Positions 8,105-59,509 of a stretch of 64,000 bases of DNA are shown here, piece after piece. A model generated the notes under the pieces. That model was not told where the DNA came from and made no database searches. It saw nothing but the letters and a program-made list of their open reading frames with translations. The stretch's first letter is position 1; each line of letters opens with the position of its first letter. The position numbers and the translations under genes were made by a program. Source of the DNA: Ginglymostoma cirratum (lineage: Eukaryota); NCBI GenBank assembly GCA_024137785.1, contig JAHRHZ010000098.1:34469228-34533227 (forward strand), written 5' to 3'.

Positions 8105-8660
8105 CTTTCTCATTCCTTCATGGCGTGTGAACTCAACTAGCAAGCCCTGTAGTTGTTGCTCTTAAGAAGGTGGTGGTGAGCAGCTTTCTTGAACTGCTGT
8201 CATCCTTTTGGTGTAGGGACACTCTTAGTGGAGGCTCTTCCAGGATTTTGAGAATATTGAAGGCACAGTGATATAGTTCTAGGTCAGGATGGTGGGCGAC
8301 TTTCAGAGAAATTTACAAGTGGCTGCGTTCACATGCATTCATTGTCCTTCTCCTTCTGGCTGGTAGAGATGATAGGCTAGGCAGGTACTATCAAATAAGA
8401 GATAACACAGTGCGGAGTTGGAGGAACACAGCAGGTCAGGCAGCATCAGAAGAACAGAAAAGCTGACATTTCGGGTTGGGACCCTTCTTCAGAAAAATGC
8501 TATCAAATAAAGCTTGACAGGTTGATGCAGTGAAGCTTGTACGTAGGACACACTGCTGCCATTATGTGTCAGTCTAGGGTTAAGTTAACATCAAGATTAT
8601 TGGACGGAGTGCAGATGCAGCAGGTCGCTTCGTCCAAGATGGTGCCAATTTTTTTTTGAA
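8105..8660 (-). mobile_element. CR1/L2-superclade LINE family 2, 3' fragment (interrupted by a family A insert)
   Basis: aaggtggtggtgagcagctttcttgaac..ccaggattttg..gtcaggatggtg shared with 30305, 42050 and 54238. Confidence 0.7.
8399..8499 (-). mobile_element. Family A hammerhead element with TSD
   Basis: TSD ctatcaaataa at 8388-8398 / 8500-8510; - strand CTGAAGA-A-GGGTCCCAACCC-GAAATGTC. Confidence 0.85.
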
Positions 8661-8807
8661 TGTCACCATAACCTTGAGTAATGTCTCAGCAGATGACAGT
8701 TTTAATAAGTCTCTGAAGTGAGGAGAACTTTCCCACTTCAAGACACAATATAGCTGTTAAAACCCCTGAAAATACACTTTATTTCTAGTGTGCAGCCTTC
8801 TTTTTCC

Positions 8808-9262
8808 TTTATTCATTCATGGGACAAAGGCATCACAAACCACCCCAGGATTTATTGCCCACCCTTAACTACCCAGAAACAAGAGCAGAAATTGCTGGAA
8901 AAGCACAGCAGGTCTGGCAGCATCTGTGGAGAGAAAGCAGAGTTAACGTTTCGGGTTCAGTGACCCTTCCTTAATTACCCAGGGGGGCAGTTAAGAGTCA
9001 ACCACATTCCTGTGGGTCAGAAGTCACATATGGGCCAGATCATGTGAGGACAGCAGATTTCCATCTCCAAATGGGTGTTAGTGAACCAGATGAGTTTTTA
9101 CAACAACCAACAATAGTTACATGATTATCATTAAGCCAGCTTTTCGTTTTAAGTTCCAGATTTGTATTGAGTTCAAACTTCACCATCTGCCATGGTGGGA
9201 TTCTCAAACCCATAACCCCTGAAATGTGAGTATAGTGACATTACAACCAGGCCACCGCTTCC
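8808..9262 (-). mobile_element. SINE family 2 containing a family B insert
   Basis: SINE body on - strand; insert 8877-8968 flanked by ccttaactacccag / ccttaattacccag. Confidence 0.8.
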
Positions 9263-9628
9263 GCAGTAAACTTGGCATATAAGAGTATAGTAAATCATTA
9301 CTATTGCTGACAAGCTCTCTGCCCTAGAAGTCCAAGATGATAAGTATGTCACATTAGCTGGAAAGAATTTCATAACATTTTAAGATAGTAACAAATATTT
9401 TTTACAGTTTGTACAGCTTATGATGTTTCTGGTTCTAGTGCATATGGCTCAGTCTTTACTTTGCTTCCTGTAATAGCTCTGAAAATTGAGTAATAATCAG
9501 TACATTTTATTTCCTGAGTTACTGTCTGTGAGAATACCTCAATGAGGTTAGCTAATTACATTGTTCGAGGATATCAATATCATTAGAAACCTGGAGACCA
9601 TTTGACTAAATTGAATGCCAAAGGGATC

Positions 9629-9727
9629 TTTGATTTCTGAAGAAGGGTCCCGACCTGAAATGTCAGCTTTCCTGCTCCTCCAATGCTGCCTGGCCTGCTG
9701 TGCTCCTCCAGCTCCACACTGTGTTAC
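9629..9727 (+). mobile_element. Family A hammerhead element
   Basis: CTGAAGA-A-GGGTCCCGACCT-GAAATGTC (9637-9664); imperfect TSD gccaaagggatc / gccaaatggatc. Confidence 0.85.
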
Positions 9728-10118
9728 GCCAAATGGATCACTTTGCAGGCAGTTTTATCTTAGGTCAGAGGTGAACCCCTGTGAACTCTGTCTATAACGC
9801 AATTCTGATCATTTCTACCCGCTTTCCAGATGTCAGTCATGTTACTTTAGGAGACTGGGCTGTGATGTAGTTTTCCTAGGGTAAAACATCACTGCCAGTA
9901 TGATGTGGTCTGAGCACTTCCTTTATATGCTAGTCGATCCAACATATACCATGAAGTCTGGGTTCTTGTTGAGACAGGTGTCTTGAAGTTTATTAACAGC
10001 ACTAACTATGTACACTGATATGATACTACACACTTACCTGTAGTCCAGTTTCTATGCTTATATCACTGTTACATTAGAAGCATGACTGATTCGTTGACTA
10101 ACAGACCAACTGACAAGC

Positions 10119-10262
10119 ATCGGAGGAGCAGGAAAGCTGATGTTTCGGGTCCAGACCTGAAACGTCAGCTTTCCTACCCCTCTGATGCTGCCTGGCCTGC
10201 TGTGTTCATCCAGCTCCACACTGTGTTATCTCAGATTCCAGCATCGGCAGTTCCTACTATCT
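10119..10262. mobile_element. Family A hairpin element with TSD
   Basis: Inverted arms meet at gtttcgggtc-ca-gacctgaaac; TSD cagaccaactgac(a/g)agc at 10102-10118 / 10263-10279. Confidence 0.85.
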
Positions 10263-12524
10263 CAGACCAACTGACGAGCTGCTTTTAACTGACTGATTGA
10301 TTAACGAAGACTAAGATGGAGGCATTTTTTGTAGAGTGTCAAGAGTCCTGATGCCATCTGGCTGTCCTAAAGGTATAGTGCCTTTTTGAGATTTGTGCAA
10401 TATTACAACAGACTGAGGGAATGGTTGGAAAAATCTGGAGATAACTGCTATCACCAGGGCTGCTCTTGCAACTCACCTTGGAGATGATTTTGAGAAATGT
10501 GCAAACTGTCCTATCAATTGTGTGTAATGCATGGTTTAGGAGAGATTGAAAGTAAGAAGGATTGAGAACAGGAAGGTACTTTATAGAAAGAAACTTTTTA
10601 AACTTCATGCTGGCTCAAGCCTGATGTATGAGCCGAAACAATGAATGTCATCATGGTGTTGAATCATGGGAAGACCTGGTTTTCACCCCAACACATGAGC
10701 ATTGTTTCCTTCATTACAACAGAACTACTTTCAAAGACTACTCAATGAGCTGCAAAGCATTTGCTGACATTCTGAGGCTGTGAAAGATTCTATATTAATA
10801 CTAATCCCTGTTTCTTTCCCTTTCTCTTTATAGCAGGAGCAACTGCACAAACATCAGAACAAGGATCCATTGCTGATCCTCAATTTTGCCATCCTTGATA
10901 CAACATCACAGAACACCCATCCACTAGACCCTTGTACCAACTCAATCCCGCCATCGAGTCATACAGCATTGAAACAGACCTTTCAGTCCAACCAGTCCAT
11001 GCCAACCATAATGCCAAACTAAACTAGACTCACCTGTCTGCACTTGGCCATGAATATCCCTGACCTCTGTAACTGATGTCCTCAGTTAGTAATGCATTTG
11101 CTAACTGGGGCACTGATTATAATAAGAACTTAGATTTATACAGCACCTTTAATGGAATGAATCAACCCGAGGCACTTCATAGGAGCATTGTAAAACAAAG
11201 TAAAAGGAAGATATGTCTTTATATGCTTCAAAGGTATAAAACACATTGTGAAGACAGCAACTGCAAAGGCCTAGTTTAGCTTCTGACATGTCAATGTTTA
11301 GCTCTATTTATCTTCTTGTTGCACAAGGTGAGAAGCTCCCTCCTTAGAAATCAGGGAGATAGTTATCTCAGCTGTACGCAGACTTGGCAGTTCCTTCAGA
11401 AATGGAAGGCTGCATGGCCCCTAAAGACATAGAAATGATGCACCCTCTCCCACATTGTGACAAAATTGTAAAATAAGCCAGAAAGGCTCTGTCTCTGCAT
11501 TGCTTAATTCATAGGAAGTCTTTTTTTTACATAGCAAGAATGGCCAATAACAAACCTGAGGACGTAAAGGCCATTTCTTTGTGTTGAATTTACAAATAGA
11601 CTTCCTTGATGTATGTGTTGAAATCATGGCTTCGGGGCTTGTGTACAGCAATGAGAAAGTGATAGCCTTTCACTGAGCTAGTATATTTATCTCTTCTGTC
11701 AGCCTAATGCACTTTATTATTCTTTGCTGTTGCTGTAGGAAAAGTGTAACACAATACTGATATGAAAACGTTTTGCCAGTCCTCAGGGGTGAGCTCCAAT
11801 TTAAAATGTAGCTTAAGGAGGCAAATAGTGACTCCAGTGGTAAAAGACTGACCCTATTTCTGATTTCTTTCATTTTCAAGGAATAGAATATTACCTTCCC
11901 TCTTTTATATACCATTATAAAAAGAGCATTCATTTTGTGTAAAGACCATTTTTACTGATGAAGATGGGAAACCAAAACTCAATTCATTTTCGCTCTTGAG
12001 AATTCCACTGAAGAAATCTTGTCTTACACATGTTGTGGTTTGTGGCCGTCTTGATTTTCCATTTCCAAGGGTTTTGCATTGTTACTGCAAAGGGGAAAGA
12101 AGTTGAATATGTCTCCCTTGGAGAATTTGGAGAACTTTGGGTGACCCAAAGAAAGATTTCAGGATGAGACAGGCTATGCACAAATTGTTCACCACAGCAA
12201 AACATTGAGATACAGGTTTAAAAAGAAAAAAGGATTCAGATTAAGGAAGGCAGTGAAACCTTCTCCAATCACCAGATGCAGGACATAAGAAAGTTAGACG
12301 TTGAGAAGGAAATGCAAACTTTGAACTGAACTGACTATTCATCTCTTCTTCCTCAACATCACTTGCTCTGTGGTCTATCCATTTTTTGTTAATTTCCTGA
12401 GAATTCAATCAACCATTGGCTTGAATATACACAATTAAAATGCTTCCTGAAGAAATCCATGGATATTATAAGATCAACACAATTATTGATACTTAGTTGG
12501 AAAGGAAAGGAACAGAGAGATAGA

Positions 12525-12835
12525 GGGGCTTTGGCATAGTGTTAATGCCCCTAGGTTTGTAATCCATGTTCCGCTAACATGGTCTTAAGTCTCACCGTAG
12601 CAGATGTGCAATTTTTATTCAATGAAAAAATCTGGAATCAAAACCTAGTCCAATAGCAACAATAGTCACAAAAGCCCATCTAGTTCACCAAAGCCCTTTA
12701 GAGAAGGAATTCTGTTGCTCTGAATTGTCTACGTGTGACTACAGGCCCACTGCAATGTGGTTGCTTTTTTATTGCCTTTTGAAATGATCTAACAGTTCAA
12801 GGTCAAGGCTCAGACGATGATACCCACATCCAATG
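12525..12835 (+). mobile_element. SINE family 2 (diverged)
   Basis: cccatctagttcacc..ctttagagaaggaa..tacgtgtgact..gcaatgtggttg. Confidence 0.65.
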
Positions 12836-13940
12836 AGTATGCTTAGAAGGCAGGGCACAAAGGTGAACAATAGATAGGTTGAAAGATTCAAAGTTCAAAA
12901 GAGATTCTCTATTCTGAGCTTAGAGTAAGTGATAGCCTTCCCTTTCCAGTATCAATTATTTTAGACGGTGCTTAGAATGAATTCAGAAGCCTCAGAGTGG
13001 CCTTTTCAGTTGAGAAGCATTGGAGGGAGGTGTGTAATTCCCCCTGATGGCTACTCCTGGTAACCTTCAATATTTATTACCTCTACTAGGTACGGGGTAA
13101 TCAGGATGATCAGGTAATCGAAAGGCAATCTTAATTTGCCTTTGCGTTGTTATGGTCTCATCTGGTGACTAATGGTGAAAGGTGCACCAACATAGAATAC
13201 CTACAGAAGGGGCACTGTCCTTTGATAGCCAGACGGTTCACTGCATATCTGCAATAAGGAAAACTACATTTGATCAGACATAATAACTAGATCTTAGGGA
13301 GCTGGTAGTGATATATCTAGTCCCTCTGAAATCAAGATCAGAACTTGTGTCTCCACCCCAGTCAGTGTAGAGCAGGTGGCGTCAATGGAACATGAACATT
13401 AACCACTTCAGAATCATAACTTTATATAACAGGAGATTGAATTCAACCTCACACTCCTCAACACCTTCAAGAAAACAGGAAGAGAGACAAAGGGAGGCTG
13501 AAAAGAGCAGTTTACGTTTCTCTAAAATATAACTCATAAAATATGCCAGAAATGGAATGAAAAAAGGACAATTCAGGCTGCAGTCCTGCCTGCATGGTTT
13601 GACAGGTATGTGATAGAGTTCTACACCTGAGGCTTTTAAAGAAGAGTTGCAAATTGGCTCAGCAACAGAAAGCAGAAGGTGAAGATAAATGGAGACAGTT
13701 CTACCAAGGGAGTGCTGACTGGCATAGATCTTCAGTGAGCTATTTCAGGCTCTAGATGGACTTGCAGTCATATGCACCATTCAAACCTGTGCAGTATAAT
13801 GTTACAAAATTAGCTGATAATGCCAAGTGGTGTGGTTTGCTGCCCAAAGTCAAGAAGATTTATCACATTGAAACTGAAGGAAAAAATTAAGTTAAGGAGT
13901 TCTGAAGAATTGTAATGTAGATAATTATGAGATAACAGGA

Positions 13941-13942
<2 letters not shown>

Positions 13943-14007: not shown

Positions 14008-14008
<1 letters not shown>

Positions 14009-17554: not shown

Positions 17555-17830
17555 TTGTTGGATGCTGGAAATCTCAAATATAAACAGAGAGTTCTAGAGA
17601 AACTCAGCAGGTCAGGCAGCACCTGTGGAAAGAGAAACAGAGTCTGCGTTTCACGTTGATAAACTACTTATGAGGTCTTGCTATAAAAATAGCTAAACCA
17701 AATTAAATTTGCCCAGCTGTCATCAGTTCTGAAGAAGGATCACTGGACCCGAAAATTTAACTCTGATTTCTCTCCACAGATGTTGCCAGATCTGCTGAGC
17801 CTTTCCAGCAACTTCTGCTTTCGTTTCTAA
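17555..17830. mobile_element. Two family B pLTR pieces in inverted orientation
   Basis: - arm 17555-17670; + arm from ~17724: agtt-CTGAAGA-A-GGATCactgGACCC-GAAAATTT-aact. Confidence 0.75.
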
Positions 17831-32548: not shown

Positions 32549-33375
32549 TGATGAAGAATGGAAAGAGGCTAGAATGAACTGTAAATGTCATAGTGGGCTG
32601 GTTGGGGAGTGTGGCCAGGATCTGTGCTGAATTCTCAATGTAAGAAGTTAGATCCTTCAATCATCATAGCAGAGACTTGAGTTAACTGTACATAGCGTAC
32701 AACCAGCACTGAAGGTCATAGAGGATGTGATTTAATGGCCTTTTAGCTGAGCTGATTATCAAGAGTACTATGATATGAGAAGGAAGACAGGAGGCTTGAG
32801 CTCAATGGAATACAGTGTACCGTATCCTTTGATGTTATCTTATGTAATCTTCATATTGGCCATGAGTACGTCTTATCTTTAATTAAGCTTCAAACGGCTG
32901 ACTGCATGTTGAATTCCTTTTTGTGGTAATTACTGGAGCCTTTATCAATAATATCTTTATCTTTACCTATGTCTAAAATTCAGTTTCTTCAACACTTGTG
33001 ACAGATGCAACTTATTTGTTGAATGCGATTACTGAGAATTGGGCAATGTCAGTATTACTGGCTGTTTCTTAAATAAACATTTCATTGAGTGCTCTGGGAG
33101 TCCAGTTGGTAGACTGTGGGATTTCCCAGACTGAGATTGGGAATTCGGATTTGCCAATTTTGAGGAGAAAGCGTGAAGCTCCCCTCTGACATGAAACCTA
33201 TTACATTAACCGTCTCTGATTCGATGTCCTCAGTAAGACAGGAAATGGCTTGGTGTTTAGGGCTAATAACTAAATAATCCAGTATATTAATCAAAGTAAT
33301 CAGGACACTGAGGACTTTCATTCCCCAAATTCTCACACAACCCTCCTCTGTTTTCGTAACATTGCTGCTGACCAG

Positions 33376-33478
33376 AGACAAAAACAGAAGTTGCTGGAAA
33401 AGCTCAGCAGGTCTGGCAGCATCTGTGGAGAGAAAGCAGAGTTAACGTTTCAGGTCGAGTGACCCTTCCTCAGAACTG
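33376..33478 (-). mobile_element. Family B hammerhead element
   Basis: - strand agtt-CTGAGGA-A-GGGTCactcGACCT-GAAAACGTT-aact. Confidence 0.85.
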
Positions 33479-33625
33479 AGTCTGATTTCTCTCTATTTTT
33501 CCATTAATTTTAATTTCCATTAATTCTAATTTCCATCTGTAGAGTTGTACTTGAGAATGTAGCTCACTGCCACTTGCAAAAAGGCAGTTAAGGATGGGTA
33601 ATAAATGCTGCCCAACTTCTAGAAA

Positions 33626-33722
33626 AATTTCTGAAGAAGGGTCCCGACCTGAAACGTCAGCTTTTGCTCCTCTGATGCTGCCTGGCCTGCTGCATTCCTC
33701 CAGCTCTACACTGTGTTATCTC
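33626..33722 (+). mobile_element. Family A hammerhead element
   Basis: Contains the motif at 33631-33658 followed by the family A body. Confidence 0.85.
33628..33661 (+). ncRNA. Minimal type-I hammerhead ribozyme motif, core intact (family A)
   Basis: ttt-CTGAAGA-A-GGGTCccGACCT-GAAA-C-GTC-ag; all conserved core nucleotides present, GUC cleavage triplet. Confidence 0.7.
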
Positions 33723-34854: not shown

Positions 34855-35294
34855 TTGAGGCTGGTTGGCTCGCCGAGCTGGTTTGTTGTTCCGCAGGCGT
34901 TTCATTACCGTGCTTGGTAACAACCTCAGTGCAACCTCTGATGAAGCGTTGGTGTGTTTTCCCACCTGGTTTTTAAACTCTGGGGTCCGTTGCGATGGAT
35001 TGCCTCACTTCCGGGTTTCCTCCGTAGTGGAATGTATATGGGGTCGAGTTCAATGTGTTTATTAATAGCCTGCTTTGTGAAGTGCCTTGCTTCCAGGAAT
35101 TCTTGTGCTTGTCTCTGCTTAGCCTGTCCCAGGATCTTGGTGTTGTCCCAGTCAAAGTCGTGGTTCTCCTTGTCCATGTGGATTGAGATGAGTGAGTATT
35201 GGTCGTGTCTTTTTGTAGCCAGTTGGTGTTCATGTACTCTTGTTATTAGTTTCCTTCCTGTTTGTCTGATGTAGTGTTTCTCGCAGACTCTGCA
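34855..35294 (-). mobile_element. Penelope-like element 3' end (GIY-YIG + pLTR) with 8-bp TSD
   Basis: CRVCEKHYIRQTGRKLITRVHEHQLATKRHDQYSLISIHMDKENHDFDWDNTKIL..EFLEARH..AINKHIELDPIY; TSD tgtgtgca at 34847-34854 / 35295-35302. Confidence 0.9.
34892..34933 (-). ncRNA. Minimal hammerhead motif (family D, two core mutations)
   Basis: tgca-CTGAGGt-T-GTTACC/aagcac/GGTAAT-GAAAC-GcC-tgcg. Confidence 0.7.
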
Positions 35295-36071
35295 TGTGTG
35301 CAGTTTGGGTTCCTTATCTGAGGAAGGATGTTCTGCTTATGGGGGATAATGCAGCAACGGTTTTAGTAAACCAAGTCCTGGGATGGCAGGACTGATAAAT
35401 GAAGTGAGACTGGATTAGATAGGACGATATTCACTGGAGTTTAGAATAATGAGGGGGATCTCTTGGAAATCTATAAAATTTTCACACGGCTAGACAGGTT
35501 AAAACCATGTAAGTATATTCACGATAACCAGGGAGTCCAGAACCAGGGCTCACAGTCAACGGACAAGGGGTAGGCCATTTATGACTGAGATGTAGAAAAT
35601 ATCTTCACTCAGAGACTGGTGAGCCTGTGGAAAATCTCTGTCACGGAAAGCGGTTGAGGCCAAAATATTGAATGTTTTCAAGAAGGAGTTAGGTCTAGAT
35701 CTTAGGGCTAAAGAGATCAAAAGATATGGAGAGAATGTCTGAACAGGAGACTGAGTTGGATGATCAACCATGATCATATTGAACGTGGAGCAGGTTTGAA
35801 GGGCCGAATGGCTTACTGCTGCTCCTGTTTTCTATGTTTCTATGTTTCATCTCTCGTGTTGTAAACCAGCTAGGCCATTGGACCCAATATAAGAAGAGGA
35901 TCATTAGCATCACTCCATTCCAAATGTCATCTGGAAGCAGTTGGTTCCACAACACACATAGCACAGCAGAGCTGAATAAATACAGGGAGCTCCTAAAGAC
36001 TTCAGAGCTGAACACACTGGGATTCTTTTATCCAGGAAGGAGAAGGCTGGAAAGTCTTTAAAATAATGAAG

Positions 36072-36250
36072 ATAACACAGTGTGGAACTGGAGGAACACA
36101 GCAGGCCAGGCAGCTTCAGAGGAGCAGGAAAGCTGACGTTTCGGGTCGGGACTCTTCTTCAGAAATGGTGCTGCCTGGCCTGCTGTGTTCCTCCAGCTCC
36201 ACACTGTGTTATCTCAGACTCCAGAATTGGAGTCTTACTATCTTACTATC
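36072..36250. mobile_element. Family A hairpin element with 17-bp TSD
   Basis: TSD tctttaaaataatgaag at 36055-36071 / 36251-36267; - strand core CTGAAGA-A-GAGTCccGACCC-GAAACGTC (36135-36162). Confidence 0.9.
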
Positions 36251-39200
36251 TCTTTAAAATAATGAAGGTGTTTGGTAGGTCACAAATAACAGAGAATAAT
36301 TAATAAATCCAATTGGAAATTGAACCGAAAGTTCTTTACCCTAAGAGTGGTCAGAATGTGAACCTCAGTACTGCAAGGAGTAGTTGAGGTGAATCCAGAA
36401 GCATTTAAGGAAAAGCGAGATAAATCCATTCATGGAGAAAGGAGTAGAAATAGGATGAGTTAAAGAAAAATTGGAAGAGGCCTCTGTGGTGCATAAATGT
36501 TAACACAGAACAGCTGTGCAGAATAGTTTATATGTAAAATCCAAATAGTCTACAGGAGAATCTGAGGCACATTAGGTTCATTTTGAAAATGTCTACATGG
36601 ATTTTCCGACTATTACCACTTTCCTGTGTACCTGAGATTGAGCAGTTGGTCATATGAAAGTACTTAGGAGGGACCAAGGAAGATAACAGGCAATATGTAA
36701 GTAGTTCTGATAAACTGCCTTTTAAAGGGTCATGATAAGCTTTATCTGCCTGAAGAGATTATGTGTAGGCCTGATAGTTTTTTGTATCCACTACTAAGAG
36801 GAGACCTTATCTTTGTCACACACAAAAAAAAAGCTCCATCTGAGATTTGTAAAGTGAGGTTGAAGATTTTGCAGGCATTCAGTTAGCACATCACAAATGA
36901 GTTCAAGTTGTAGTTGAAGGAGAACTCGAGTTAAGTCCAATGATTGCTCATCAGTTGATGGTATCCTGAAGATGTTTCAAGCAGAAAGGCATTTTTTTTC
37001 CATACATTGGAGATTGAGAGGTGTTGGCAGGTGCTTATATTTTCCAAGTGTTGTCACTCACCTTCAGGATGTGATTTCTTTTCCTTCCCTACTAGTCTGC
37101 TCAACATTTGGCAATGAATGCTTGACTTATGCTGAATAAATGCCCAAAAGGCTTCACATAATACACTCCTGCACCATAAGGGCCAACAAGTTCATTTTAA
37201 AACTGATTTTCCAAGAGCTTGGATGTCCACAGTGTCAGCAGGTACAGACTAGCAGTAAGCTACAGGCTCTTTGGGATTGTCCAGTAAAGGTAAAGCCACC
37301 ATTGTCCTACTGTACCATTGGACTGCTCGCTTATAAAAGAGAGATGACTGGTGCTGTTTTAACCTGAGGGTTACCACGCATCAGGCAAAGAGAAAAGTTT
37401 AGTTGGAGAGATTTTCATGGCAACTTCAGTTAGTATAGGAATTGAACCCAAACTGTTGGTACCACTCTCATGTTACAAACCAGCTGTCCTAGCCAGCCAG
37501 TGAGTCTACAGAGGACAAAACATCACAGTGTGTGCACAATTATTTTCTATAATGACCTGGCGTTTAATGTGCAAGTTATAGAATGTAAGCCATTCGGCCC
37601 GTTGAGCCTGTTCCTCCATTCAACATGGTGGACTTGTTGATCACGGCTGACCATCCAGCTCTGTTGTGTTAGGGGTCACAGTGGAAATTTCTCTTTTTTT
37701 GGTGTCACAATCTGTGGATATTCATGTGAATCAGTTAATGAGCATTCAGGGCAATATGTGTCATGAACAATGAATGCAATTGCCCTGCTGGACTCAGCAG
37801 CCTTTCTTGTTTTATACTTGGGCTGTCGCACAATATCTGTGAATCGTTGACAGATCATCCATTAGCACTGAAACACATCGATATCAATCACACTGATTCA
37901 TGGCAATGTTAGATAAATCCTGATTGCCATTTTTATTGATGGCTCAGATTGAACATTTTGGTTCCACACCATGCCCCTTCTATCAGCCCAAGTTCAAAAC
38001 AGATGATACTCATTCATCTAAAGCAAGTGTGTTTGAATGAGAGCATACGATTCAAAATTATTAACCTTCTGCTCAGGCGTCAAGCTCTGAATCGCTTGAT
38101 ACACCATTAGGAACTTGCAATTTGTTTGATTCTTGGCACTGGTGGTTTAAGATAAGTAGGGGAGGAGAGCAAGAGAACTGTGTTAAAAATGCTGGTCAGT
38201 ATTGCATTCTTCCATTTATCACCAAAAAAATCAATCATGCACCGCGGACTGGTAAACAACAATGTGGGACCCTTTACTTGGAGGTTAGAACAAATGCACA
38301 AGGTGTGCTAACTGGGAATCTCTGTAGGTACTTCTGAACTGCAGAACTGCTGCCCTGTTCTGTTTGCAGGTTCATTGGATTTTGTGTCATGTCTTGTCTT
38401 GTGGACAGTGGAGGACAGCTGCTCCCATATCAGAACAAAGGGTTAACTTCATAGGTGGCTTACACATTTGGATACATGAAGAGAAATAGAGGAAACTTGC
38501 TGACAACACCAGCAGAAGGGTTTCTGCCAAACGCTATGTCTACGTTTCTTAGGCCGACCAAAATTAGTCCATGATGCAAGGACTCAGGGCTCACGGATGT
38601 GTCAGATGCAGGGGGAAGCTATAGTGCAGACAAGCCTCAAAGAGGTCAAATTCATAACATTACTTCAAAGAATACTTTCTTTCAAAGGAAAAGTATTTCA
38701 TGCGATATTTACAGTAATTTCCTTTGGGGTGTAAGAGTGGTCCATGACACATTCAGAAATCCATGCTGTTTATTTGAAGTTGCAGGGTAGATCCGTGCTG
38801 TTTTTATAAGCCTGCTTTATCCCCACTTCCGCTCCTTCTGTTCTCAGTTGTCGTCTCCACTTTTCCGAAGTTGTTGGTGGGAAGGGTCCGTGTGTCTCGA
38901 TGAGTGCTATAGATGTATGGCCAGGTGGATATTATTGGTGTAAAGCCATAGCAAGTGTCATTAGGCTGTTGTGGATCTGTTGTGGATCAGTCGACTTGTC
39001 CTGTTTCATGTCTGTCAAACAAAGCAGCAATCAGTAATAAATACCTGGTTCTGGATTTTCTTCACTCCCACTTCTTCTCTTCAACAGTGTAAGAAAAAGA
39101 GCAGATTTAATTAGCGTCTTTCATGATCTCAGGAATCTTAGTGTCCATTATAGCCAATTAAGTGTTTTGGAAACACAGCCATTGTTACAATGTAAGATGC

Positions 39201-43998: not shown

Positions 43999-45278
43999 TT
44001 CTGTACAAGAGGTGAGAATAGAGGGAGGAAAGGTGTTTTTGTATGGTGCCTTACTGTCCTATCAATACTGCATGCCATCTTGTGCAATTCCTACGAGGGT
44101 GTGACAAAAGTTGGAGAATGTGGACAATCAGCCTTCAGAAAGAAAGTGCTCCAGCAGTGACTTTTTTTTAACGCTATTGAAGGGGAAATATTGAGCATGG
44201 CACCAGGAAGACTCCTATTCTGATTGAAGGAATGAATGATCTACTATCACATATATTTAAAAAAATTACTGTGAAAAGTGTGAATTGTCACCACGCTCTG
44301 GTGCCATTTTGAATTACAGAATGTACTGAAATTACTGAAAAAGAGTTCATCTTTTGTCCCCATCTGCGACTCTGCTTGACATTGGCTGGGGTCTCTCTAT
44401 AATGGACTCTGGGATTTCTGTACTGGCCTCCAGGCTCCGAGCCTACCAACACCGCCACCACTGCCCGATAGGAGCCATGCTCACAGATTACCTCTCCGGG
44501 CTCACCAACTCACCACTGTTGCCATGAGTCCCACTCCGGGCTCAACATTGTCACCTTCCTCCGCCATCTGTGCCAAAAATAAGAAGAGATGAAGATGAAA
44601 AAAAGAAAAGGTAGAGAAAGAAAAGGAGAAGAAGGATGCTGCCAGCCTGGTGAACAGGAAGGGAAGGGCTCAGGAGGCCAAATGCTCCCTACCGTGCTGC
44701 TTCCACCATCTTAGTATCAACCCTAGTGATAGATCTTCAGCCCTTTCTGAACCACCTGACTGGACTGAACATTGAGTGAACATCCCATTGGAAGGAGAGC
44801 ACCTCTGTGATTGGGCCAATCCCTCAGTAGCATGCTGGGATGTCAGACACAGTCAGGAGCTGGGATCACATCATAGCAGTTTCATCCACAGCTTTCTGAT
44901 TCATTAGCAAGGACATTACTGGCCAAGTCATGTTAATATGTCTGTTAACACAATAAAAAGGACATTGTGCCTCAGTTTCAAAGAAAAAGGGGGAGAAGAA
45001 AAGCCTCTTTTTAAACAGGGATTCATGAAGATTTGGAACTTGCAAAGGGTGAATAATATTTAGACATTTAGTTGTATTGTTGAAAACAGAAACATTTTGC
45101 TCAAGCATTGCATTTTGCAATCATCAAGACATCACAGGAATTACCCAAGGGAAAAACAGCATTTACACTATATGAGAGCAGAGTACTGATTCTGATTGGT
45201 AGAGATGTCACCATGGAGAATGGACCACTTAATGCTGACCGACAGTTAACTGCTGAGCTTAGTTTAAATTTTAAATGA

Positions 45279-45380
45279 TGTGGAAATGCCGGTGTTGTCA
45301 GATGACAAAGGAGCAGCGTTCCGAAAGCTTGTGATTTCAAATAAACCTGTAAATAATCTGGTGTCATGTAACTTCTGACC
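45279..45380 (+). mobile_element. Family C hammerhead-type element with TSD
   Basis: aTGACaA-A-GGAGCagcGTTCC-GAAAGCTT-gtga; TSD aaatttta(a/g)atga at 45266-45278 / 45381-45393. Confidence 0.8.
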
Positions 45381-45818
45381 AAATTTTAGATGAGGCAGGT
45401 TGAGTCTAACTGATCAAAGTGTTGCCCTGAGAAATGAACCGGAAAATGGCTTTTTTTTTTAGTCGAGACAGGAGCAACATACGTACATATTCCTTCTACC
45501 TGTAAAGAACACAGCTTTGTGTATCCATGAATGTAGCTTCCAATATACAGAAGTGCACCATATTGTGATCTTGACTGACAATCCTAAAACTGTTGTCAGG
45601 ATCATTCTCAGCATATTCAGGATTAGGCAGCAAATGTTGTTCCGTTGGGAATTACAGCTAATGTTGGCCACTGAGTGTTGTGAGTTCTGTAAGCCCACGA
45701 TCAGCACTTAGCTTGTTACAAACAGCCAAAGGGATATTCTGTTTGATGTTATCCACCAGTGTCTGGGATGTACAACCTATATAGCTGGCATCACACTGGC
45801 ATTGAAACTCATATACCA

Positions 45819-45935: not shown

Positions 45936-47853
45936 GTATCACTCATATGTGTGACAGACGGAATGCCTTTTGGCTTGATAGCAGCATTCTGTTAGCGGTG
46001 AAAACCACTTTCGTTGCTACTGCAAGAAACTAGAACCATGAAACAGTTCTGTTGCTCACATCTGTTGCTCAAGTGTTTCGGATACTTCAACCTTCCACAG
46101 TAATCTGAGGTCAACTGGCACCAAAAATAACAGCCGTCACACCCTTCATGAGCTTGCGCAGTATCCAGTGAATAATGATCTGATCCGGGTAGCCACTATT
46201 CCGCAGGGTGGTTTGATGAACCGTATTTGAGCATCAAGCTTGCACAGTGAACAAATGGTTCAAACCCCATTTATGAGGTTACTCATAAGACCAACCTCAT
46301 AGCATCTGGAACTGTAAGAATCCCAATTAAGTATCCTGACCAGTGAATGATAGAGCAAATGGGGTCCCAGGTGAATGTCTCATCAGACAGTGCAGTACTC
46401 CCTCAATACTGGAGTAAAGAGACATGGCCTTTGTCCAATGTTCAAGTGGAGCTTTAAACCACAACAGAGATGAAAGAGGCTGTGAACAGATTTATGAGGA
46501 GCGTAAACATCAGATTAGGGTCATATGATCTCCTCTCACTTCTTACATTCTGCATAAGAATTGGTTTGTGTTAGCTATCTGAAATTCATTACTACAAAGA
46601 GCTGTTAAGGCTATGTCATTAAGTATATTCAATGCTGAAGTAGACAGATTTTTCATCAATAAGGAACTCTGGGGGAAAAGGCAAAATCTCATGGAATGGC
46701 AGAGCAGATTCAATGGGCCAATTGTCCTGCTTCTGCCCCTACATCTTATGTTCATCCTAACCTGTAAACTGCTTGAAAAATCTCCTGAACTCCAGCCAAA
46801 TCACTGGCCAGGGACTGATCTGAAAAATGAACCAATTCACAGCTGTGAGCACCAATCAGATCAGTAACAATCCTGAACCACTCTGACTGTCCAAGAACCA
46901 GCTCCTCAAACAATGCAAAGATTTTTAACCATCCTATTGCTTGGCTATCATCCAAAGGTGAGCCACAGAAATCTGGAATGAGTGATAAACTTGCTTGTTG
47001 GCCAAAACATCAGGGTGCAGTCATCTGTTTGTGCAGCACAGTAGCTCAAAAGACATGTGATTGCTCCTCACTGAATTGCTCAGCAAAGTACTGACCATCA
47101 CGACCTCTGACCCTGACGCCAAAGGGGACAAAGTGGGCATTCGTAACTCAAGAGAACTATTCGCATCTGCCCATTGCACCATCGGCCTGTGGTTGTCAGT
47201 TAGACATTATGGCAACCCATCTGCTTTAGATAAAAACAGTTCAGAGTAGAAAGGAATGAGTAACAACAGAGAAACCTCAGTGAAATGGGGAGGAGTATGG
47301 TGCATACTGAATCAGCTCCAATAATGGCCAGCTTTTAAATCATATCCAGCTTGCTCTATGTAAATTCAAATCACTAAAATATAACAGTGCACATGTCTGT
47401 CGTTCTGGTATGAGTTTCCTAATGGGGGTATTTGGGACAATTTCTCAATGAAAATGTAACTTTGACCCTTAATCTGCTTTAAAGAAAGTTATACTTCCTT
47501 GTTTGAACAATATAAAAAGCAGTATCTCAAGCAGGAAATTCACCATTGTCCCACTTTCTCATTCAAGAGAGAGAGAGAAGTGGTGGTGGTTTAACCTGTG
47601 GGTTACCATGCTTCAGGCAAGAGGTAAGCTTGAGAAGGCAGGACCTTCATAGTGACCTTCACCAGTAGAAGAGGTGAGCACATATTATAGGTATCATTCT
47701 TGCATTAAATACCAGCCATCCAGCCAACTGAGCTAGCTGACTCAAGCACTATCTGTTTTAAACAAACCCTAATTTGCTGAGATGGGGACACCATAATAAT
47801 ACTGATTAATGAGGAACAGTTGTGGTTCTGAAACCTGACTGAACCAAAATGAA

Positions 47854-48423
47854 TCAGAGATAAAAGGTACTGCAGATGCTGGAGAATCCGAGATAACAAG
47901 CATGGGGCTGGATGAACACGGCAGGTCAAGCAGCATCATAGGAGCNNNNNNNNNNNNNNNNNNNNNNNNNNNNNNNNNNNNNNNNNNNNNNNNNNNNNNN
48001 NNNNNNNNNNNNNNNNNNNNNNNNNNNNNNNNNNNNNNNNNNNNNNNNNNNNNNNNNNNNNNNNNNNNNNNNNNNNNNNNNNNNNNNNNNNNNNNNNNNN
48101 NNNNNNNNNNNNNNNNNNNNNNNNNNNNNNNNNNNNNNNNNNNNNNNNNNNNNNNNNNNNNNNNNNNNNNNNNNNNNNNNNNNNNNNNNNNNNNNNNNNN
48201 NNNNNNNNNNNNNNNNNNNNNNNNNNNNNNNNNNNNNNNNNNNNNNNNNNNNNNNNNNNNNNNNNNNNNNNNNNNNNNNNNNNNNNNNNNNNNNNNNNNN
48301 NNNNNNNNNNNNNNNNNNNNNNNNNNNNNNNNNNNNNNNNNNNNNCGGGTCTAGGCCCGAAACGTCAAGTTTTCCTGCTCCTACGATGCTGCTTGACCTG
48401 CTGTGTTCATCCAGCCCCATGCT
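47854..48423. mobile_element. Young family A inverted-repeat element spanning the assembly gap
   Basis: Inverted arms on both sides of the Ns; exact TSD tgaaccaaaatgaa at 47840-47853 / 48424-48437. Confidence 0.85.
47946..48345. other. Assembly gap (400 N)
   Basis: Read directly from the sequence. Confidence 1.
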
Positions 48424-49179
48424 TGAACCAAAATGAAGACTGTTTAAGAAAGATATTTTGTTACTCTTTACCTCTCACGTTTGTGCATGCTTTATTTCTT
48501 CCAGCACTTCACCAAATAATTTCAGATAGTATCCCCTATTTACAATTGAAATAAATTGTGCTCCCTCCAGCATTCACTTTTGACCTGCAAGTCATGCAAT
48601 CAAAATTCAACTTCTGACAGGCTAGCAGCACATTGAAAGGCCAATTTTTCAGGCCTGTCAGAGTCCCTGTCACTGGATGAGATATTAAATTGAGACTCCT
48701 CCTTCCCTTTCAAATGGAAGATAAAGATCCTAATGCAGTATTCCAGGAGGAGCAGAGGAGTTCTGTCTGTCTCCTGATCAACATTTATCCTGCAATCAGT
48801 GTCATGAAAATCGGTTATTGTTTCACTGCCATTTGCAGGGCCAAGCTTATGGGCACAGGTTTCTTGTTATGCTTGCTGAAAATTCTTCAAAGGCATGTAC
48901 TGCACCAAACAAGAGCTAGTCTGCCTTTTTTTTTTGAGTCATCTGAGAGGTTGATATGCTTTTGGTAAAGTGGCCATATCAAGTCCTAAGACGTTTTCAA
49001 GTCTGCACTTGGAGACCTGAAGCAACCAATGTTTGGAATTGGGTTTGCTGAAAAATATCTTCAGTGGTCCTGATTTAGTTGGCTGTTGTCAAGGTTGCTT
49101 TGTAAAAGTGTATGTTTGTAGCTACCCCCACACTACTCCATAGTTTTCACTAACTCTGCATCGAAGACCAGAAAACTAC

Positions 49180-54560: not shown

Positions 54561-56486
54561 GCAATGGGTTCCTGGCTCATCCCTAATTACCCTGAGGAGT
54601 TGGTAGGGTTGGGGTGTGTACAACTGATGACAGCATTAATAGTTGACATGACTTGAACACAAACCAGAGAACATAGAAGGATTAAAATAAAGAAGCAAGA
54701 GTAAGCCACTTGGTCCCTTGATCTTGCTCCACCATTCAATATCATCATTGCTGACCTTTGACCTTAACTCCATTTTCGTAGCCATATTCCTTGATTCCTA
54801 ATATTCATGGTCAAGAAATCTATTGATCACAGCCTTTCATAACCTCAGTGGCTGAGCAGCAAGAGCTATCTGAGTGAAGATATCACTCCTGATTGTTGCC
54901 TTATCCTGAGTCTATACCTTCTCGATCCAGACTCTTCCATATCTACCTGAGAAGCCCTGTCAAAGTGTTCTATGTTTCACTTATTCTTCTGAACCTTAGA
55001 GAATATAGATCCCAATTATTCAATCTTTTCATCCTCCCATTCCTTAACAACATGACCGAACGGGTGGTTGTTTGCAAAAATCTGCTAGCTTTTGTATGCC
55101 TTATGTACCATGGAGAATGAGACCTGTTCTCCCCACTTGGCACACAACTCAGAAACCCCACCAATGAACCAAGCCAATTTCACACTCTTAACAAGGATTG
55201 ACTCTTAGGTTCACCAATAATCAGAGTAATGGTGACAGCCATAACTGGAATGTGAGGGAAATACAGTCTTAACGTGGAAACCTGGACAAATTGCTGTTGA
55301 CTGAACCCATGCCACCTGCCATTGGCAAGACGTGTCCTTCTATTCTGTCGCTGACTATTTGTACATTTTGGCTTTTTTTTTGGAATTTCTTTACCAATGT
55401 TTTAATCCAGCCAGACCAAAGCCAAACTTCTGGTTAAAAACAGCATTTTCAAACCTCCTATTTTCGGGAAAATAAACCCACAGCCAGTATTTCCCACAAA
55501 TTTGTGGTTGTCAGACCAACACAGCTGGTTGCACCCTGGCTCGGACGAGCTTATGTGAGGCTGTATCCAGCTTCTGTCCTTTAGAACCTTTCAGTAATGT
55601 CATGCCAACAGGCGCCAGTACTGATGATGCGTGATGATTGTGCTCGTTATAGATTTCCTTGTCCTTGAGAGTGCTGAGACACTTGGGGGCTTGTTAATGA
55701 GGTTGAAATAAATTGTAATTGGAACGCCAAGTTTAGTTAAGCCCCTAAGCATTGTGTTTTCCATGATGCAGTACTGTAGTAGGCAGTATTATAAACATTA
55801 GAGAAATTCTGGAGACGAGAATTATATGTAATAACAGAGAGTGGGTAAGATCACAAGTAAATCAAAACTCAGGAGCCCAGCAATTATAGATAACACAATC
55901 AGTAGTTTGATTCTTATTGCAATTAGATCTTTTCATTTTTGCATTAGAGGCATTAACCCACTGAATTCAAGCAGGTTATTTTCTTTGGAAAATATTAGGC
56001 AGAAGGCCATTGTTTGAAAAGAATATGGAACTTTCAGTTGATAGCTGAAATTATAACAGGTCCAAGATTTCATGTTTTTGAAAATATTTACTAAAAGAAA
56101 TGAGTAATGAAGAAGCACTATTTTTGTTTTGTAGGTAATTTATACTTTAAATCAAAGAACATTTCCCTTTTAAACGTATCACCATCACACTGGCCATGGG
56201 ATTACTTTCCTCAGAATAAGCAGTTGCTTTGTGGTTCCACTGGGTTCCTGTATTCATATTTTACCGAGTGGAAACTTTGAGAGACTGTCTCCAGGGGCTG
56301 TTGTCAGGCTTTGGAACACTCGTTAAATCCCCCACCAGTGGTAAAGATTGTTGCAAAGATTCTTCCTTTCCTGGGCAAGTTAATTCAAATATCTTGGAAT
56401 ATGTAGATGGCTACATTTTCCTACTCTAGGTTTGGTCACACGAAGTCTCTGCTGACCCCATAGAACCTTTTTGGCGTTTTGTTTAC

Positions 56487-56656
56487 AATGTGGGGCACCA
56501 GTGTCGGACTGGGGTGGACAAAGTCAGAAGTCGCATGACACCAGGTTATAGTCCAACAGGTTTATTTGAAATCACAAGCTTTCATAGCAGGAACAGTGCT
56601 CCGAAAACTTGTGATTTCAAATAAACCTGTTGGACCATCAGCTGGTATCGTGTGAC
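56487..56656. mobile_element. Family C hairpin element with 10-bp TSD
   Basis: gtccaacaggtttatttgaaatcacaag / cttgtgatttcaaataaacctgttggac; TSD ttttgtttac at 56477-56486 / 56657-56666. Confidence 0.85.
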
Positions 56657-56679
56657 TTTTGTTTACGGTATTGACTTTG

Positions 56680-57848
56680 TAGTATATATAAATGATCTGG
56701 AGGAAAATGTGGGTGGTCTGATAAGCAAGTTTGCTGATGACACCAAAGATAAAAGGTACTGCAGATGCTGGAGAATCCGAGATAACAAGCATGGGGCTGG
56801 ATGAACACAGCAGGTCAAGCAGCATCATAGGAGCAGGAAAGCTTGACGTTTCGGGCCTAGACCCTTCACCCGAAACGTCAGCTTTCCTGCTCCTATGATG
56901 CTGCTTGACCTGCTGTGTTCATCCAGCCCCACACCTTGTTATCTGCTGATGACACCAAGACTGGTGGAGTTGCTGATAGCGCCAACAATTGTGAAAGGAT
57001 ACAACAGGACATAGATAAATTGGCAACTTGGGCACAGAAATGGCAAATGGGGATTAATCCAAACAAATGCAAGGTGGTGCATTTTGGAGGATCAAGTTTA
57101 GGCGTGAATTATATTTTAAATGGCCAACGCCTTAGGAACACAAACATTCAGATAGATCTGGATGTGTAAGTCTACAGTTCCCTGGAAGTGGCAACACAGG
57201 TGGCCAAGGTGATTAAGAGGGCATATGGCATGCTTGCCTTCAGTGTCTGGGGCATGGAGTACAAGAGTTGGTGAAACATGTTGCAGCTATATAAAACCCT
57301 TGTTAAGCTGCATTTGGAGTATTTTGTGCAGTTATGGTCACCACACTACCAGAGAGACATGGAAGCTTTAGAGAGAGTACAGAGAAGGTTCACCAGGATG
57401 TTGCCTGGTTTCCAGGGCATTGACTGTAATGAAAGGTTAAAAAAACTAGGATTATTTTCACTGGAAAGATGGCAGCTGAGTAGAGACCTGATAGAGGTCT
57501 GCAGAATTATGAGAGGCATAGATAGGGTGGATAGTCAGAGGCTTTTTCCCAGGGTTGAAGTTTCAAATACAAGGGGGCACAGGTTCAAGGTGAGAGGGGG
57601 AAAGTTTAAGGGAGATGTGCGAGGGAAGTTTTTCACGCAGAGAGTAGTAGCAGCCTGGAATGCGCTACCAGAAGACGCGATGGAAATGGGCACATTGAAG
57701 ACATTTAAGAGGCATCTGGATGGGTACATGAATAGGGAGGGAATAGAGGGATATAGACCAAAAAATGACAAGTTTGTTTTTAGGGCATGGTGGTCAGCAT
57801 AGGATTGGAGGGCCGAAGGGTCTGTTCCTGTTCTGTACTTTTTCATTT
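56680..57848 (+). mobile_element. CR1-type LINE, RT C-terminal region to 3' end (stops present)
   Basis: YINDLEENVGGLISKFADDTK..WQMGINPNKCKVVHFG..LYKTLVKLHLEYFVQLWSPHY..RGKFFTQRVVAAWNALP. Confidence 0.95.
56747..56943. mobile_element. Young family A hairpin element inserted at the CR1 FADD motif
   Basis: Exact 15-bp TSD tgctgatgacaccaa at 56732-56746 / 56944-56958; inverted arms. Confidence 0.92.
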
Positions 57849-57877
57849 GTTCATTTGTAGGGAAACCTATAACCTGA

Positions 57878-57976
57878 TTTCCTGCTCCTATGATGCTGCT
57901 TGACCTGCTGTGTTCATCCAGCCCCATGCTTGTTATCTCGGATTCTCCAGCATCTGCAGTACCTTTTATCTCTTAT
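57878..57976 (+). mobile_element. Young 5'-truncated family A element
   Basis: Direct repeat acctgatttcctgctc at 57872-57887 / 57977-57992. Confidence 0.9.
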
Positions 57977-59509
57977 ACCTGATTTCCTGCTCTGCATGGC
58001 AACGCGAAACAAAATAACCTTACATGCAGGTAGAAATTCTAACTAGCTTTCCTTGATCCCAATTTCCTTTCAGTTTAGGAGTATATTTAAAGTACAACTA
58101 TTTACAACCTAAGTCCAGCAATGCCATTCAGGGTGTTTGGGAAACTTAGTGTCTCAATGTCAATTCAGAGACTGCTGCCATTCTCTAATTCCTTGCATCT
58201 TCTAAGCCTCCCTTTGTTCTCTAATAACCAGATCCTCCCAGGCTTACTGTCAGGCTAATGTCAACACAGGTCACAATGATACGTTCCCAAAGTATAATAA
58301 TCTGATAAACCCCTCAGTCTGAATAAGCATTTCCCAGTGAGAATTGAAAAATCTTGTTAATAGGACCAATGCATTTCAATAGTCTTGTTATAACCACTCA
58401 CTCCGAGGTGCTCAGTGTTTTCATTAGCACTAATCTGCAAGGCCCTAGCTTCTCAATATATGTGAATAACTAACCAACATTTTTTCTTTAATATTTAACA
58501 CCTCTGATTATCTTTGTTAATAACAGGCACTTCTCCGACACAAAGGTTTGGGGAATGTGTAATTTATATTATAATTTCTATCTGGCATTAAGGCAATGGC
58601 ACCGTTAGTTATTTAAGAAAAAACTTATTGCTGCATCTCCTGCTTTTGTGTAAAATATAATCAGTGTAGCTCAACGTAATATGGAGAATTTAGAGCGCTG
58701 ATTGGAGATTTTTGCTGCTAACGTGTGCTTCACAGGCATCAATCCTGAATCACCACTGTAGAGAAAAATGACCAACAAATGCACTGTAAATCTTCCATTT
58801 TTTTTAAACTGGCGTGGGAATATGGATCAGTTTGCAGCATTCAGAAGAAAAATTGCCCACCATCTTTTAACAGTCCCCAGCATCGCAGCAACAGCAGCTC
58901 TGCCATGTTGAACATATTGATTTAAATTAGGCTGAAAGCTTTATGTGTTCAAGGGGGTACATTGTATGGTTGATTCATAGTTAATTGATTGTAAATGTAG
59001 CCTATTAAAATTTTATGTTGGCTAGCCTGGTTTTGCTGTCTAAGTATTTGTCTATTCCTTCTGTTTATATTTTGGTAATGTACTTTAGTCTGTTCCGGAC
59101 TTTCCATTTTATTGAGTCGTCTAACACCACAGTCCTTTACTGGTTGCAGCCCTCTGTGGAGAACTGCTGCCAGGTCTTCATCAATAATTCTGTGAAGTCA
59201 TTGCTTTGTCCCACAATTTATCTCTGCCTCCTTCTCCTGGCTGGAGGTGGACTGCCAACTGATAATGATGTATCAGAGCTCATCTTGGGGAAGAAAGAGG
59301 GGAGTTACTCACTCATCAGGTTACCATGGAATCACACAGCATCTAAGGTCATTCAGTCTGGCCTACCTGTACTCACCCATTGAAGAGGGTCCACCCACCT
59401 CCCTGTTTTTTCCCCATAACCCTTCTAGAGAAACTATGAAGTTCTGAAGAAGGGGTCACTGAACTCCATACATTAACTCTGTTTTCCCTCTAGCAGATAC
59501 TGTCAGGAG

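What the first reader, a model, noticed from the sequence alone, without database searches (positions are those of the whole stretch)
8388..57992. Ribozyme-only Penelope-derived micro-elements inserted with long TSDs
Seen: at least nine ~90-200 bp non-coding inserts consist only of a pLTR piece around a hammerhead motif and are flanked by 10-17 bp direct repeats. TSD starts: 8388/8500, 8863/8969, 10102/10263, 36055/36251, 45266/45381, 47840/48424 (length unknown, gap), 56477/56657, 56732/56944, 57872/57977. They have no pol III boxes, no poly(A) and no ORF, and several interrupt a CR1 or SINE cleanly. Known: Penelope-like elements (PLEs) carry hammerheads in their pLTRs. Inference: these behave as a SINE-like class of ribozyme-delimited retroelements, either mobilised in trans by PLE RT/GIY-YIG or arising as stereotyped short PLE insertions. 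I cannot confirm that this class is undescribed.
Basis: partly seen in the sequence, partly recalled or inferred. Interest (0 to 1): 0.8.

Follow-up and report, generated by a model that had tools for sequence, protein, structure and literature searches.

The report
Run-off Penelope retroelement micro-insertions
These 90-240-base inserts are real, target-duplicated copies of the end module of a Penelope-type jumping gene, likely made one at a time when the element's own reverse transcriptase starts about 100-130 bases from the front of its RNA and runs off that front end, so they are likely dead by-products that record how the element copies itself, not a new self-spreading ribozyme element.

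Summary
All nine inserts exist at the stated places. Target duplications are 8-17 bp, and paralogous empty sites hold one copy (4 of 4 testable). 'Ribozyme-only' is wrong: only 2 of 9 keep a full hammerhead core, and 6 of 9 are head-to-head palindromes. They are end pieces of Neptune-type Penelope-like elements (PLEs) and form a continuum with multi-kilobase copies of the same build. Truncation is not random, though. In 916 kb, 5' ends pile up 1-7 bases before the hammerhead, about 30 bases below a TATA-like box. Genome-wide the step is about 15-fold, and it does not lie at the cleavage site. ORF-bearing copies begin at the same bases, and in 10 of 28 of them a micro-unit is joined to a second template. 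Palindrome junctions vary from copy to copy, and no sequence type is private to short copies, so a SINE-like master is unsupported. Best reading: cDNA primed internally runs to the mRNA 5' end, then integrates or jumps. The start site itself is untested. Short, inverted and tailed PLE copies are published; I did not find this run-off reading in print. This scan noted the 5' clustering before in other genomes.

The parts
8388..8510 (-). Family A single arm (8399-8499) from about -7/-3 to +93 (0 = hammerhead C3); full core; 11-bp TSD
8863..8982 (-). Family B single arm (8877-8968), starts +3/+6 so lacks CUGA; 14-bp TSD with 1 mismatch; interrupts a high-copy repeat
   Evidence: 16 of 16 paralogs fit one TSD copy
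10102..10275 (.). Family A head-to-head insert (10115-10262): short antisense arm plus sense arm +8 to tail end; joined in the stem II palindrome; no full core; 13-bp TSD
36055..36267 (.). Family A head-to-head insert (36072-36250): arm -6 to +93 with full core plus arm +43 to tail; 17-bp TSD; inside a LINE remnant
45266..45388 (.). Family C insert (45274-45380): short antisense tail arm plus sense arm with degenerate core; 8-bp TSD
47840..48437 (.). Young family A head-to-head insert: tail arm 47854-47945, 400-N gap, short arm 48346-48423; 14-bp TSD; true length unknown
56477..56666 (.). Family C head-to-head insert (56487-56656), arms start +16 and +8, no full core; 10-bp TSD
56732..56958 (.). 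Family A head-to-head insert (56747-56943): tail arm from +4, short arm from +16/17; arms differ at two diagnostic sites; 15-bp TSD in a LINE RT frame
57872..57992 (+). Young family A single arm (57888-57976), +31/+41 to tail end, no hammerhead; 16-bp TSD of which 10 nt are shared with the element
9617..9739 (+).
33627..33722 (+). Further family A arm -4 to +93, no TSD found
59687..59801 (-). Further family A arm starting at -4, no TSD found
33363..33479 (-). Family B arm starting at -6, no TSD found
17561..17828 (.). Old family B head-to-head pair, no TSD found
60489..60637 (.). Old family C head-to-head pair, no TSD found

Best explanation
The inserts are short, target-duplicated copies of the end module of Neptune-type Penelope-like elements, each likely made separately by the parent's own enzyme, which likely primes about 100 or 130 bases inside the front of its capped RNA and copies to that RNA's first base. 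Shown here: fixed 3' ends at about +93 and +127 relative to hammerhead C3; a sharp 5' step at -6 to -2; a TATA-like box about 30 bases above it; the same first bases in ORF-bearing copies; micro-units joined to a second template; one tail arm per palindrome. Inferred: the step is the transcription start. The run-off cDNA either integrates (micro-element) or jumps to another RNA (longer, tandem copies). Two-armed inserts likely arise when both nicks, 13-17 bp apart, are primed, one at each start site, and the two cDNAs are end-joined. Micro-copies lack the TATA box and the downstream ORF leader, so they are likely dead on arrival. The hammerhead is a passenger here, not the cutter of their ends.
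For: Census of 916,424 resolved bases, 291 arms, 241 loci. Stop rate per base in -7..-1 is 0.114 (family A, 113 gap-free arms) and 0.140 (B, 132), against 0.000-0.010 in the bins at +8 and beyond and at -8 and beyond; the 0..+7 bin is 0.020-0.025. Genome-wide exact counts: non-template base before -4, 7,533; before -5, 5,109; control before -35, 511; 6 of 61 inspected -4 matches were mutated long copies. TATWWA starts at -35 in 60 of 67 long A copies, at -33 in 9 of 19 B matches (these include short copies) and at -39 in 1 of 2 C copies. Of 30 loci chosen for the ORF 5' part, 9 (8 distinct) start at -5..-3. In 10 of 28 the 3' segment is a micro-unit joined to ORF positions +450..+1585. G precedes -4 in 3,521 of 7,533 (47%; 26% expected), as a copied cap would give. 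Exactly one tail arm in 23 of 24 A, 15 of 18 B and 7 of 8 C palindromes. Arms share subfamily type (8% mismatch against 39% shuffled, 50 pairs). Internal priming at two adjacent sites, cleavage and extension of both strands, and need of the ORF leader were shown in vitro for an anole PLE (PMC11167929). The TSS lies in the pLTR of Penelope and Chlamys-3 (PMC2377424, PMC8557442).
Against: No RNA 5' end was observed: poly(A) reads showed no pile-up of starts or ends (unstranded, swamped by passenger copies). The step also coincides with the 5' edge of hammerhead helix I, so a structural stop is not excluded. Many arms end earlier (46 of 113 A and 46 of 132 B start at 0 or beyond). Among young exact-match copies long ones are common: 38,644 reach -9 against 12,642 starting at -4/-5, and 23 of 30 sampled run on into the upstream 3' UTR. 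The G excess is partly templated: by the opposite arm in palindromes and by slippage repeats in some singles (17 of 29 singles; 12 of 24 after removing about five slippage cases). Most single arms have no adjacent TSD (12 of 89 A, 11 of 98 B), though some abut gaps. A linkage test for strand transfer was inconclusive. The in vitro work is on a Poseidon element, not Neptune. The promoter of Drosophila Penelope was mapped as internal (PMC2377424), so loss of TATA need not silence a copy.
Confidence: 0.62

Rival explanations
1. Ordinary 5' truncation of PLE insertions, with a pause of the reverse transcriptase at the 5' edge of the hammerhead or the C-rich tract above it; the template is read-through RNA.
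For: Continuum of lengths and identical build from 60 bp to about 3 kb. The step sits at the base of helix I. Very short PLE insertions (median 128 bp) are published as truncation (PMC9977147).
Against: Upstream sequence differs between families A and B, yet both step at the same place below a TATA-like box. The stop rate falls back to background beyond -7. Junctions to a second template start at the same bases (10 of 28), as expected at a physical RNA end. G excess at the junction.
Confidence: 0.18
2. Same run-off origin for the 5' ends, but palindromes form by fold-back self-priming of one cDNA rather than priming at both nicks.
For: Arms nearly always share subfamily type. Self-priming was proposed for head-to-head pLTRs (PMC3846280). 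The 1-4 nt microhomology at arm ends (27 of 30 short, 24 of 29 tail arms) fits end-joining too.
Against: Single arms also end at about +93, so it is a real priming site. TSD lengths are tight, 35 of 41 at 13-17 bp. Some pairs have both arms reaching -6..-3. At 56732 the two arms carry different common haplotypes.
Confidence: 0.12
3. SINE-like or retrozyme-like ORF-less master copies that amplify in trans, with ends set by hammerhead cleavage.
For: Very high copy number (115,739 exact matches to an 18-nt family A core). Non-autonomous PLE families and PLE-derived retrozyme monomers are published (PMC8557442; bioRxiv 2026.07.22.740005). pLTR reads outnumber ORF reads about 40-fold.
Against: Starts at the cleavage site: 2 of 113 and 4 of 132. 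Only 2 of 9 window inserts keep the core. Junctions vary. No common haplotype is private to short copies. No clean head-to-tail array in the census (6 near pairs, none an array by their coordinates). 89% of RNA reads run on into unrelated sequence.
Confidence: 0.06

Closest known systems
Insertions of endonuclease-positive PLEs (5'-truncated, inverted pLTR, 30-40 bp tail, solo pLTR; PMC8557442, PMC3846280, PMC8969392)
   Same: pLTR with minimal hammerhead, inverted 5' copy, tail at one end only, TSD, strong 5' truncation.
   Different: The passages I read treat short copies as variable truncation, or solo pLTRs as recombination or deletion leftovers. Here 5' ends form a sharp step under a TATA-like box, TSDs are 13-17 bp against 8-10 bp in the rotifer, and the one-tail rule is counted.
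Anole Poseidon PAc in vitro (PMC11167929)
   Same: Two internal priming sites that bound the tail; both strands cut and extended; hammerhead cleavage not needed.
   Different: The paper does not discuss run-off to the mRNA 5' end or micro-insertions, and reports no homology at priming; here 1-4 nt of microhomology is the rule.
Non-LTR retrozymes and their monomers (PMC7229834; bioRxiv 2026.07.22.740005)
   Same: PLE pLTR-related, non-coding, type I hammerhead, dispersed monomers, TSDs longer than 4 bp.
   Different: Retrozymes are head-to-tail arrays whose RNA unit is cut by the ribozyme. These inserts are single or head-to-head, usually lack a full core, and have ends away from the cut site.
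Non-autonomous Chlamys PLEs and short de novo insertions (PMC8557442, PMC9977147)
   Same: Very short PLE insertions, median 128 bp.
   Different: Those are separate non-autonomous families in an alga, ascribed to truncation; no private lineage was found here.
Minus-strand strong-stop cDNA of LTR retroelements; L1 twin priming (both recalled, not from a call)
   Same: Priming near the RNA 5' end, run-off and transfer; two primed nicks giving an inversion.
   Different: Here the primer is nicked target DNA, so the run-off product integrates, and both arms copy the same stretch of template.

Membership tests
EN+ Penelope-like element (Neptune/Nematis type) insertion | Parent with RT followed by C-terminal GIY-YIG | tested here: met
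   Long copies carry the same pLTR behind an RT frame (RVT_1 E 1e-4, below the curated cut-off) and a YCIRC..LYIGET stretch read as GIY-YIG by eye; Pfam gave no hit for that fragment.
EN+ Penelope-like element (Neptune/Nematis type) insertion | CX2-5CxxC linker before the endonuclease | tested here: met
   CNRRKCYTC stretch; feature as defined in PMC8557442. No tree was built, so Neptune against Nematis is recalled.
EN+ Penelope-like element (Neptune/Nematis type) insertion | pLTR with tail continuing into the ORF; inverted 5' copy; TSD | tested here: met
   Tail runs into the ORF leader in ORF-bearing loci; 50 head-to-head pairs and 57 TSDs in 241 loci.
Minimal type I hammerhead | CUGANGA, stem II, GAAA, palindromic stem III, 4-bp stem I | tested here: inconclusive
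   Present in the parent families by inspection; complete in only 2 of 9 window inserts; no Rfam hit; monomer folds no better than shuffles.
Minimal type I hammerhead | Self-cleavage | not testable with these tools
   No pile-up of read ends in poly(A) data, which is a weak test.
Non-LTR retrozyme | Head-to-tail tandem units each with a hammerhead | tested here: not met
   No array among 291 arms; whole genome not scanned for arrays.
Non-LTR retrozyme | Unit ends at the cleavage site; circular RNA | tested here: not met
   Ends: 2 of 113 and 4 of 132 near the cut site. Circular RNA could not be tested.
SINE | Pol III internal promoter and A-rich or simple-repeat tail | tested here: not met
   No B box, longest A/T run 5.
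SINE | Amplification from its own master copies | tested here: not met
   The 9 commonest haplotypes are shared with long copies (56 long, 118 short); junctions vary. Small sample and only 7 sites.
MITE | Fixed terminal inverted repeats and a shared internal sequence | tested here: not met
   Arms are unequal (one tail) and centres vary from copy to copy.

The most novel reading that the evidence does not exclude
PLE reverse transcription normally begins near the capped 5' end of its own mRNA and makes a target-primed 'strong-stop' cDNA of about 100-130 nt that must jump to another RNA end to copy the ORF. Failed jumps integrate as hundreds of thousands of micro-elements, mis-jumps give the micro-unit/ORF chimeras, and an asymmetric dimer using the two start sites on the two nicks gives the one-tailed palindromes. 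This would explain pLTRs, tails, tandems and inverted ends by one mechanism.
Probability: 0.35. Interest if true: 0.75.

Novelty: new variant of a known kind. Interest (0 to 1): 0.5.

Why it matters
How PLEs build their tandem and inverted ends is described as unresolved (PMC8557442). If the reading holds, an estimated 0.7-1.1 million short copies (about 2.5% of sampled bases; extrapolated) are a fossil read-out of each step: priming sites, nick spacing, RNA 5' end and template jumps. That gives exact predictions for the existing in vitro PLE assay. It also warns that such copies can be misfiled as SINEs, MITEs, retrozymes or microRNA hairpins (weak miRNA hits), and that young palindromes likely break assemblies. 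It is not a new class of self-propagating ribozyme element.

Tried and rejected
Rfam scan: no hammerhead hit, only sub-threshold hairpin matches. Monomer folding: z between -0.3 and +1.5 for 4 inserts, uninformative. Run search: no RNA holder on record among indexed runs. RNA lay: no start or end pile-up; one library unstranded poly(A), the other gave 387 reads; cannot test the start site or cleavage. Empty alleles in other individuals or species were not examined; this stays open. First upstream-homology filter for family A wrongly flagged inverted arms; redone, and only rates are used. Linkage across the hammerhead in 52 long copies: r2 0.37-0.91 downstream, 0.15-0.47 across, 0.09-0.39 upstream (one unlinked site left out); inconclusive. 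Flank-overlap test was informative for 24 of 241 loci and noisy. A shared 197-bp master was suggested and rejected, because junctions and subfamily types vary. A splice acceptor as 5' boundary was rejected: family A has no AG there and upstream flanks are unrelated. A cap-derived G in family B is not claimed: 47 G, 42 A, 11 T in the first 100 of 1,024 (by eye), and stem I fold-back can template it. Blocks that read all N were dropped (9 of 24 fifty-kb blocks). Supplement search of PMC11167929 found nothing (figures not held). Repbase and Dfam were not available. Paper searches for a prior description found none; subscription papers such as Arkhipova 2006 were not seen.
Full report
Observation. 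Their lengths are 11, 14 (1 mismatch), 13, 17, 8, 14, 10, 15 and 16 bp. In a wider census TSDs were found at 57 of 241 loci, against 2 of 241 in a shifted control. For four window inserts, paralogous copies of the host repeat span the site, and all fit one TSD copy (2 of 2, 16 of 16, 3 of 3, 7 of 7; five inserts had no paralog). So these are true insertions. They lack B boxes and A tails. They are not ribozyme-only: a full core is in 2 of 9, and most of each insert lies 3' of the ribozyme. Six of nine are head-to-head pairs. The window holds 25 such loci of three families, here called A, B and C.

Parent. [quoted passage not shown] That linker marks the Neptune/Nematis type in PMC8557442. Long copies have the same build as the short ones: TSD, inverted arm, direct arm, TSD, at 0.6-3 kb. 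In ORF-bearing loci the module continues through the tail into the ORF, so the module is also the 5' leader of the parent's RNA.

Census. I took fixed blocks of the genome plus the window: 19 blocks, 916,424 resolved bases, after dropping 9 of 24 fifty-kb blocks that read all N. This gave 291 arms (A 137, B 134, C 20) in 241 loci. Positions are relative to hammerhead C3. The 3' ends are bimodal, near +93 and +127 in A. The 5' ends step sharply: the stop rate per base in -7..-1 is 0.114 in A and 0.140 in B, against 0.010 or less both further down (+8 and beyond) and further up; the 0..+7 bin is 0.020-0.025 (gap-abutting arms removed, 113 and 132 left). Of arms reaching -1, 39 of 67 (A) and 58 of 86 (B) stop by -7. 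Starts within 2 nt of the cleavage site number 2 of 113 and 4 of 132. Exact genome-wide counts agree: 7,533 junctions before -4 and 5,109 before -5, against 511 at a control position, -35. Against a purely short class: 38,644 exact copies extend to -9, 23 of 30 sampled young copies run on into the upstream 3' UTR, and ORF-side truncation points look scattered. 187 of 241 loci have no arm beyond -13, or 205 per Mb (bootstrap 160-249; includes gap-abutting arms; blocks not random).

What the step is. A TATA-like hexamer starts at -35 in 60 of 67 long A copies and at -33 in 9 of 19 B matches, about 30 bases above an initiator-like CA at -5/-4 (spacing rule recalled). Copies that carry the ORF start begin at the same bases: 9 of 30 loci (8 distinct) at -5..-3, and five reach further up. 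In 10 of 28 such loci the 3'-most segment is exactly a micro-unit, joined to ORF positions from +450 to +1585 of a second template that often itself starts at -5..-3. A polymerase that jumps at these bases behaves as if the RNA ends there. G precedes -4 in 47% of 7,533 junctions against 26% expected; the control list has 22 G in 100 (by eye). Inspection of 61 cases showed that the opposite arm or slippage can supply the G; in true single arms it was 17 of 29. I treat the cap signal as suggestive. RNA reads could not test the start. The step also coincides with the base of helix I, so a structural pause remains a rival.

Palindromes. TSDs were found at 21 of 24 A, 10 of 18 B and 3 of 8 C pairs, but at only 12 of 89, 11 of 98 and 0 of 4 single arms. 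In a best-hit set, 23 of 27 distinct loci had clear 11-18 bp TSDs. Exactly one arm carries the tail in 23 of 24 A pairs (p about 1e-6), 15 of 18 B and 7 of 8 C. The arms share subfamily type, with a few exceptions including 56732. Target and template share 1 or more bases at 27 of 30 short-arm and 24 of 29 tail-arm junctions (23 arms with extra bases set aside; about a quarter expected by chance). Junction centres vary from copy to copy. Priming at both nicks fits best; fold-back is the rival.

No master copies. The 9 commonest family A haplotypes all occur in both short and long copies. No head-to-tail array appeared. Short copies lack the TATA box and the ORF leader that the anole enzyme needed in vitro. 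They therefore track the parent and are likely dead ends.

Mechanism. Shown: positions of ends, TSDs, one-tail rule, chimeras, shared haplotypes. Taken from a related element in vitro: two internal start sites, both strands extended, ORF leader needed, ribozyme cleavage not needed (PMC11167929). Inferred: capped RNA starts at -5/-4; the cDNA runs off and integrates or jumps; a dimer uses one start site per nick. Whether seamless long copies come from such jumps, from read-through RNA or from ribozyme-made circles (proposed in PMC4209133) is open; my linkage test was inconclusive.

Literature seen. bioRxiv 2026.07.22.740005, parts 1-3 of 5 (supplements closed). PMC11167929, parts 1-2 of 4 and an empty supplement search; its Fig. 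S2 on genomic ends could bear on novelty and was not seen. PMC2377424, parts 2-3 of 4. PMC4209133, parts 1-2 of 4, which already notes that most minimal hammerheads are single and probably truncated PLEs. Passages only: PMC8557442, PMC3846280, PMC7229834, PMC8969392, PMC12910113 (86, nothing relevant), PMC9977147. Eight searches found no account of a start-site-anchored run-off product; Repbase, Dfam and subscription papers were out of reach. Two earlier notes of this scan report the 5' clustering and the fold-back forms in other genomes; I stated my reading before opening them, and they are not independent support. None exists for this genome.

Verdict. Real and abundant, a variant of known PLE insertion products rather than a new class. 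The value lies in the mechanistic record, which makes an open question testable. Interest 0.5.

Noticed in passing
window 34926-35336 (- strand): Fragment of another PLE endonuclease (YIRQTGR..HEHQ stretch; Poseidon-like by recall), unrelated to the three families studied.
   Followed up: no
window 47946-48345 and census blocks: 400-N gaps often sit between two head-to-head arms; 24 of 137 family A arm 5' ends abut a gap or block edge. Young palindromes likely break the assembly.
   Followed up: partly
L203-L229: 13 of 28 ORF-5' copies break off between +443 and +629; may mark short or degraded PLE RNAs, partly an effect of how the loci were chosen.
   Followed up: partly
L031:4890-4925; L275, L279, L320: Fillers at 5' junctions are repeated pieces of the element's first bases, as from repeated slippage at the template end.
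   Followed up: no
L034:4600-5300: A family A copy lies inside a RING-finger/TRIM-like coding stretch (label recalled).
   Followed up: no
L221:1330-1415: A short upstream reading frame in the family A leader ends at the tail end; the main ORF ATG lies near +167 (read by eye).
   Followed up: no
L221:1290-1425: pLTR sequence reaches about 14,000-fold depth per direction in poly(A) RNA, nearly all as passenger in host transcripts; the palindromes could form long double-stranded RNA.
   Followed up: no
window 1947-2408 and 57275-57802: LINE-type 3' ORF remnants (RTE/L2-like and CR1-like by recall); no host exon was evident among 35 long open frames.
   Followed up: no
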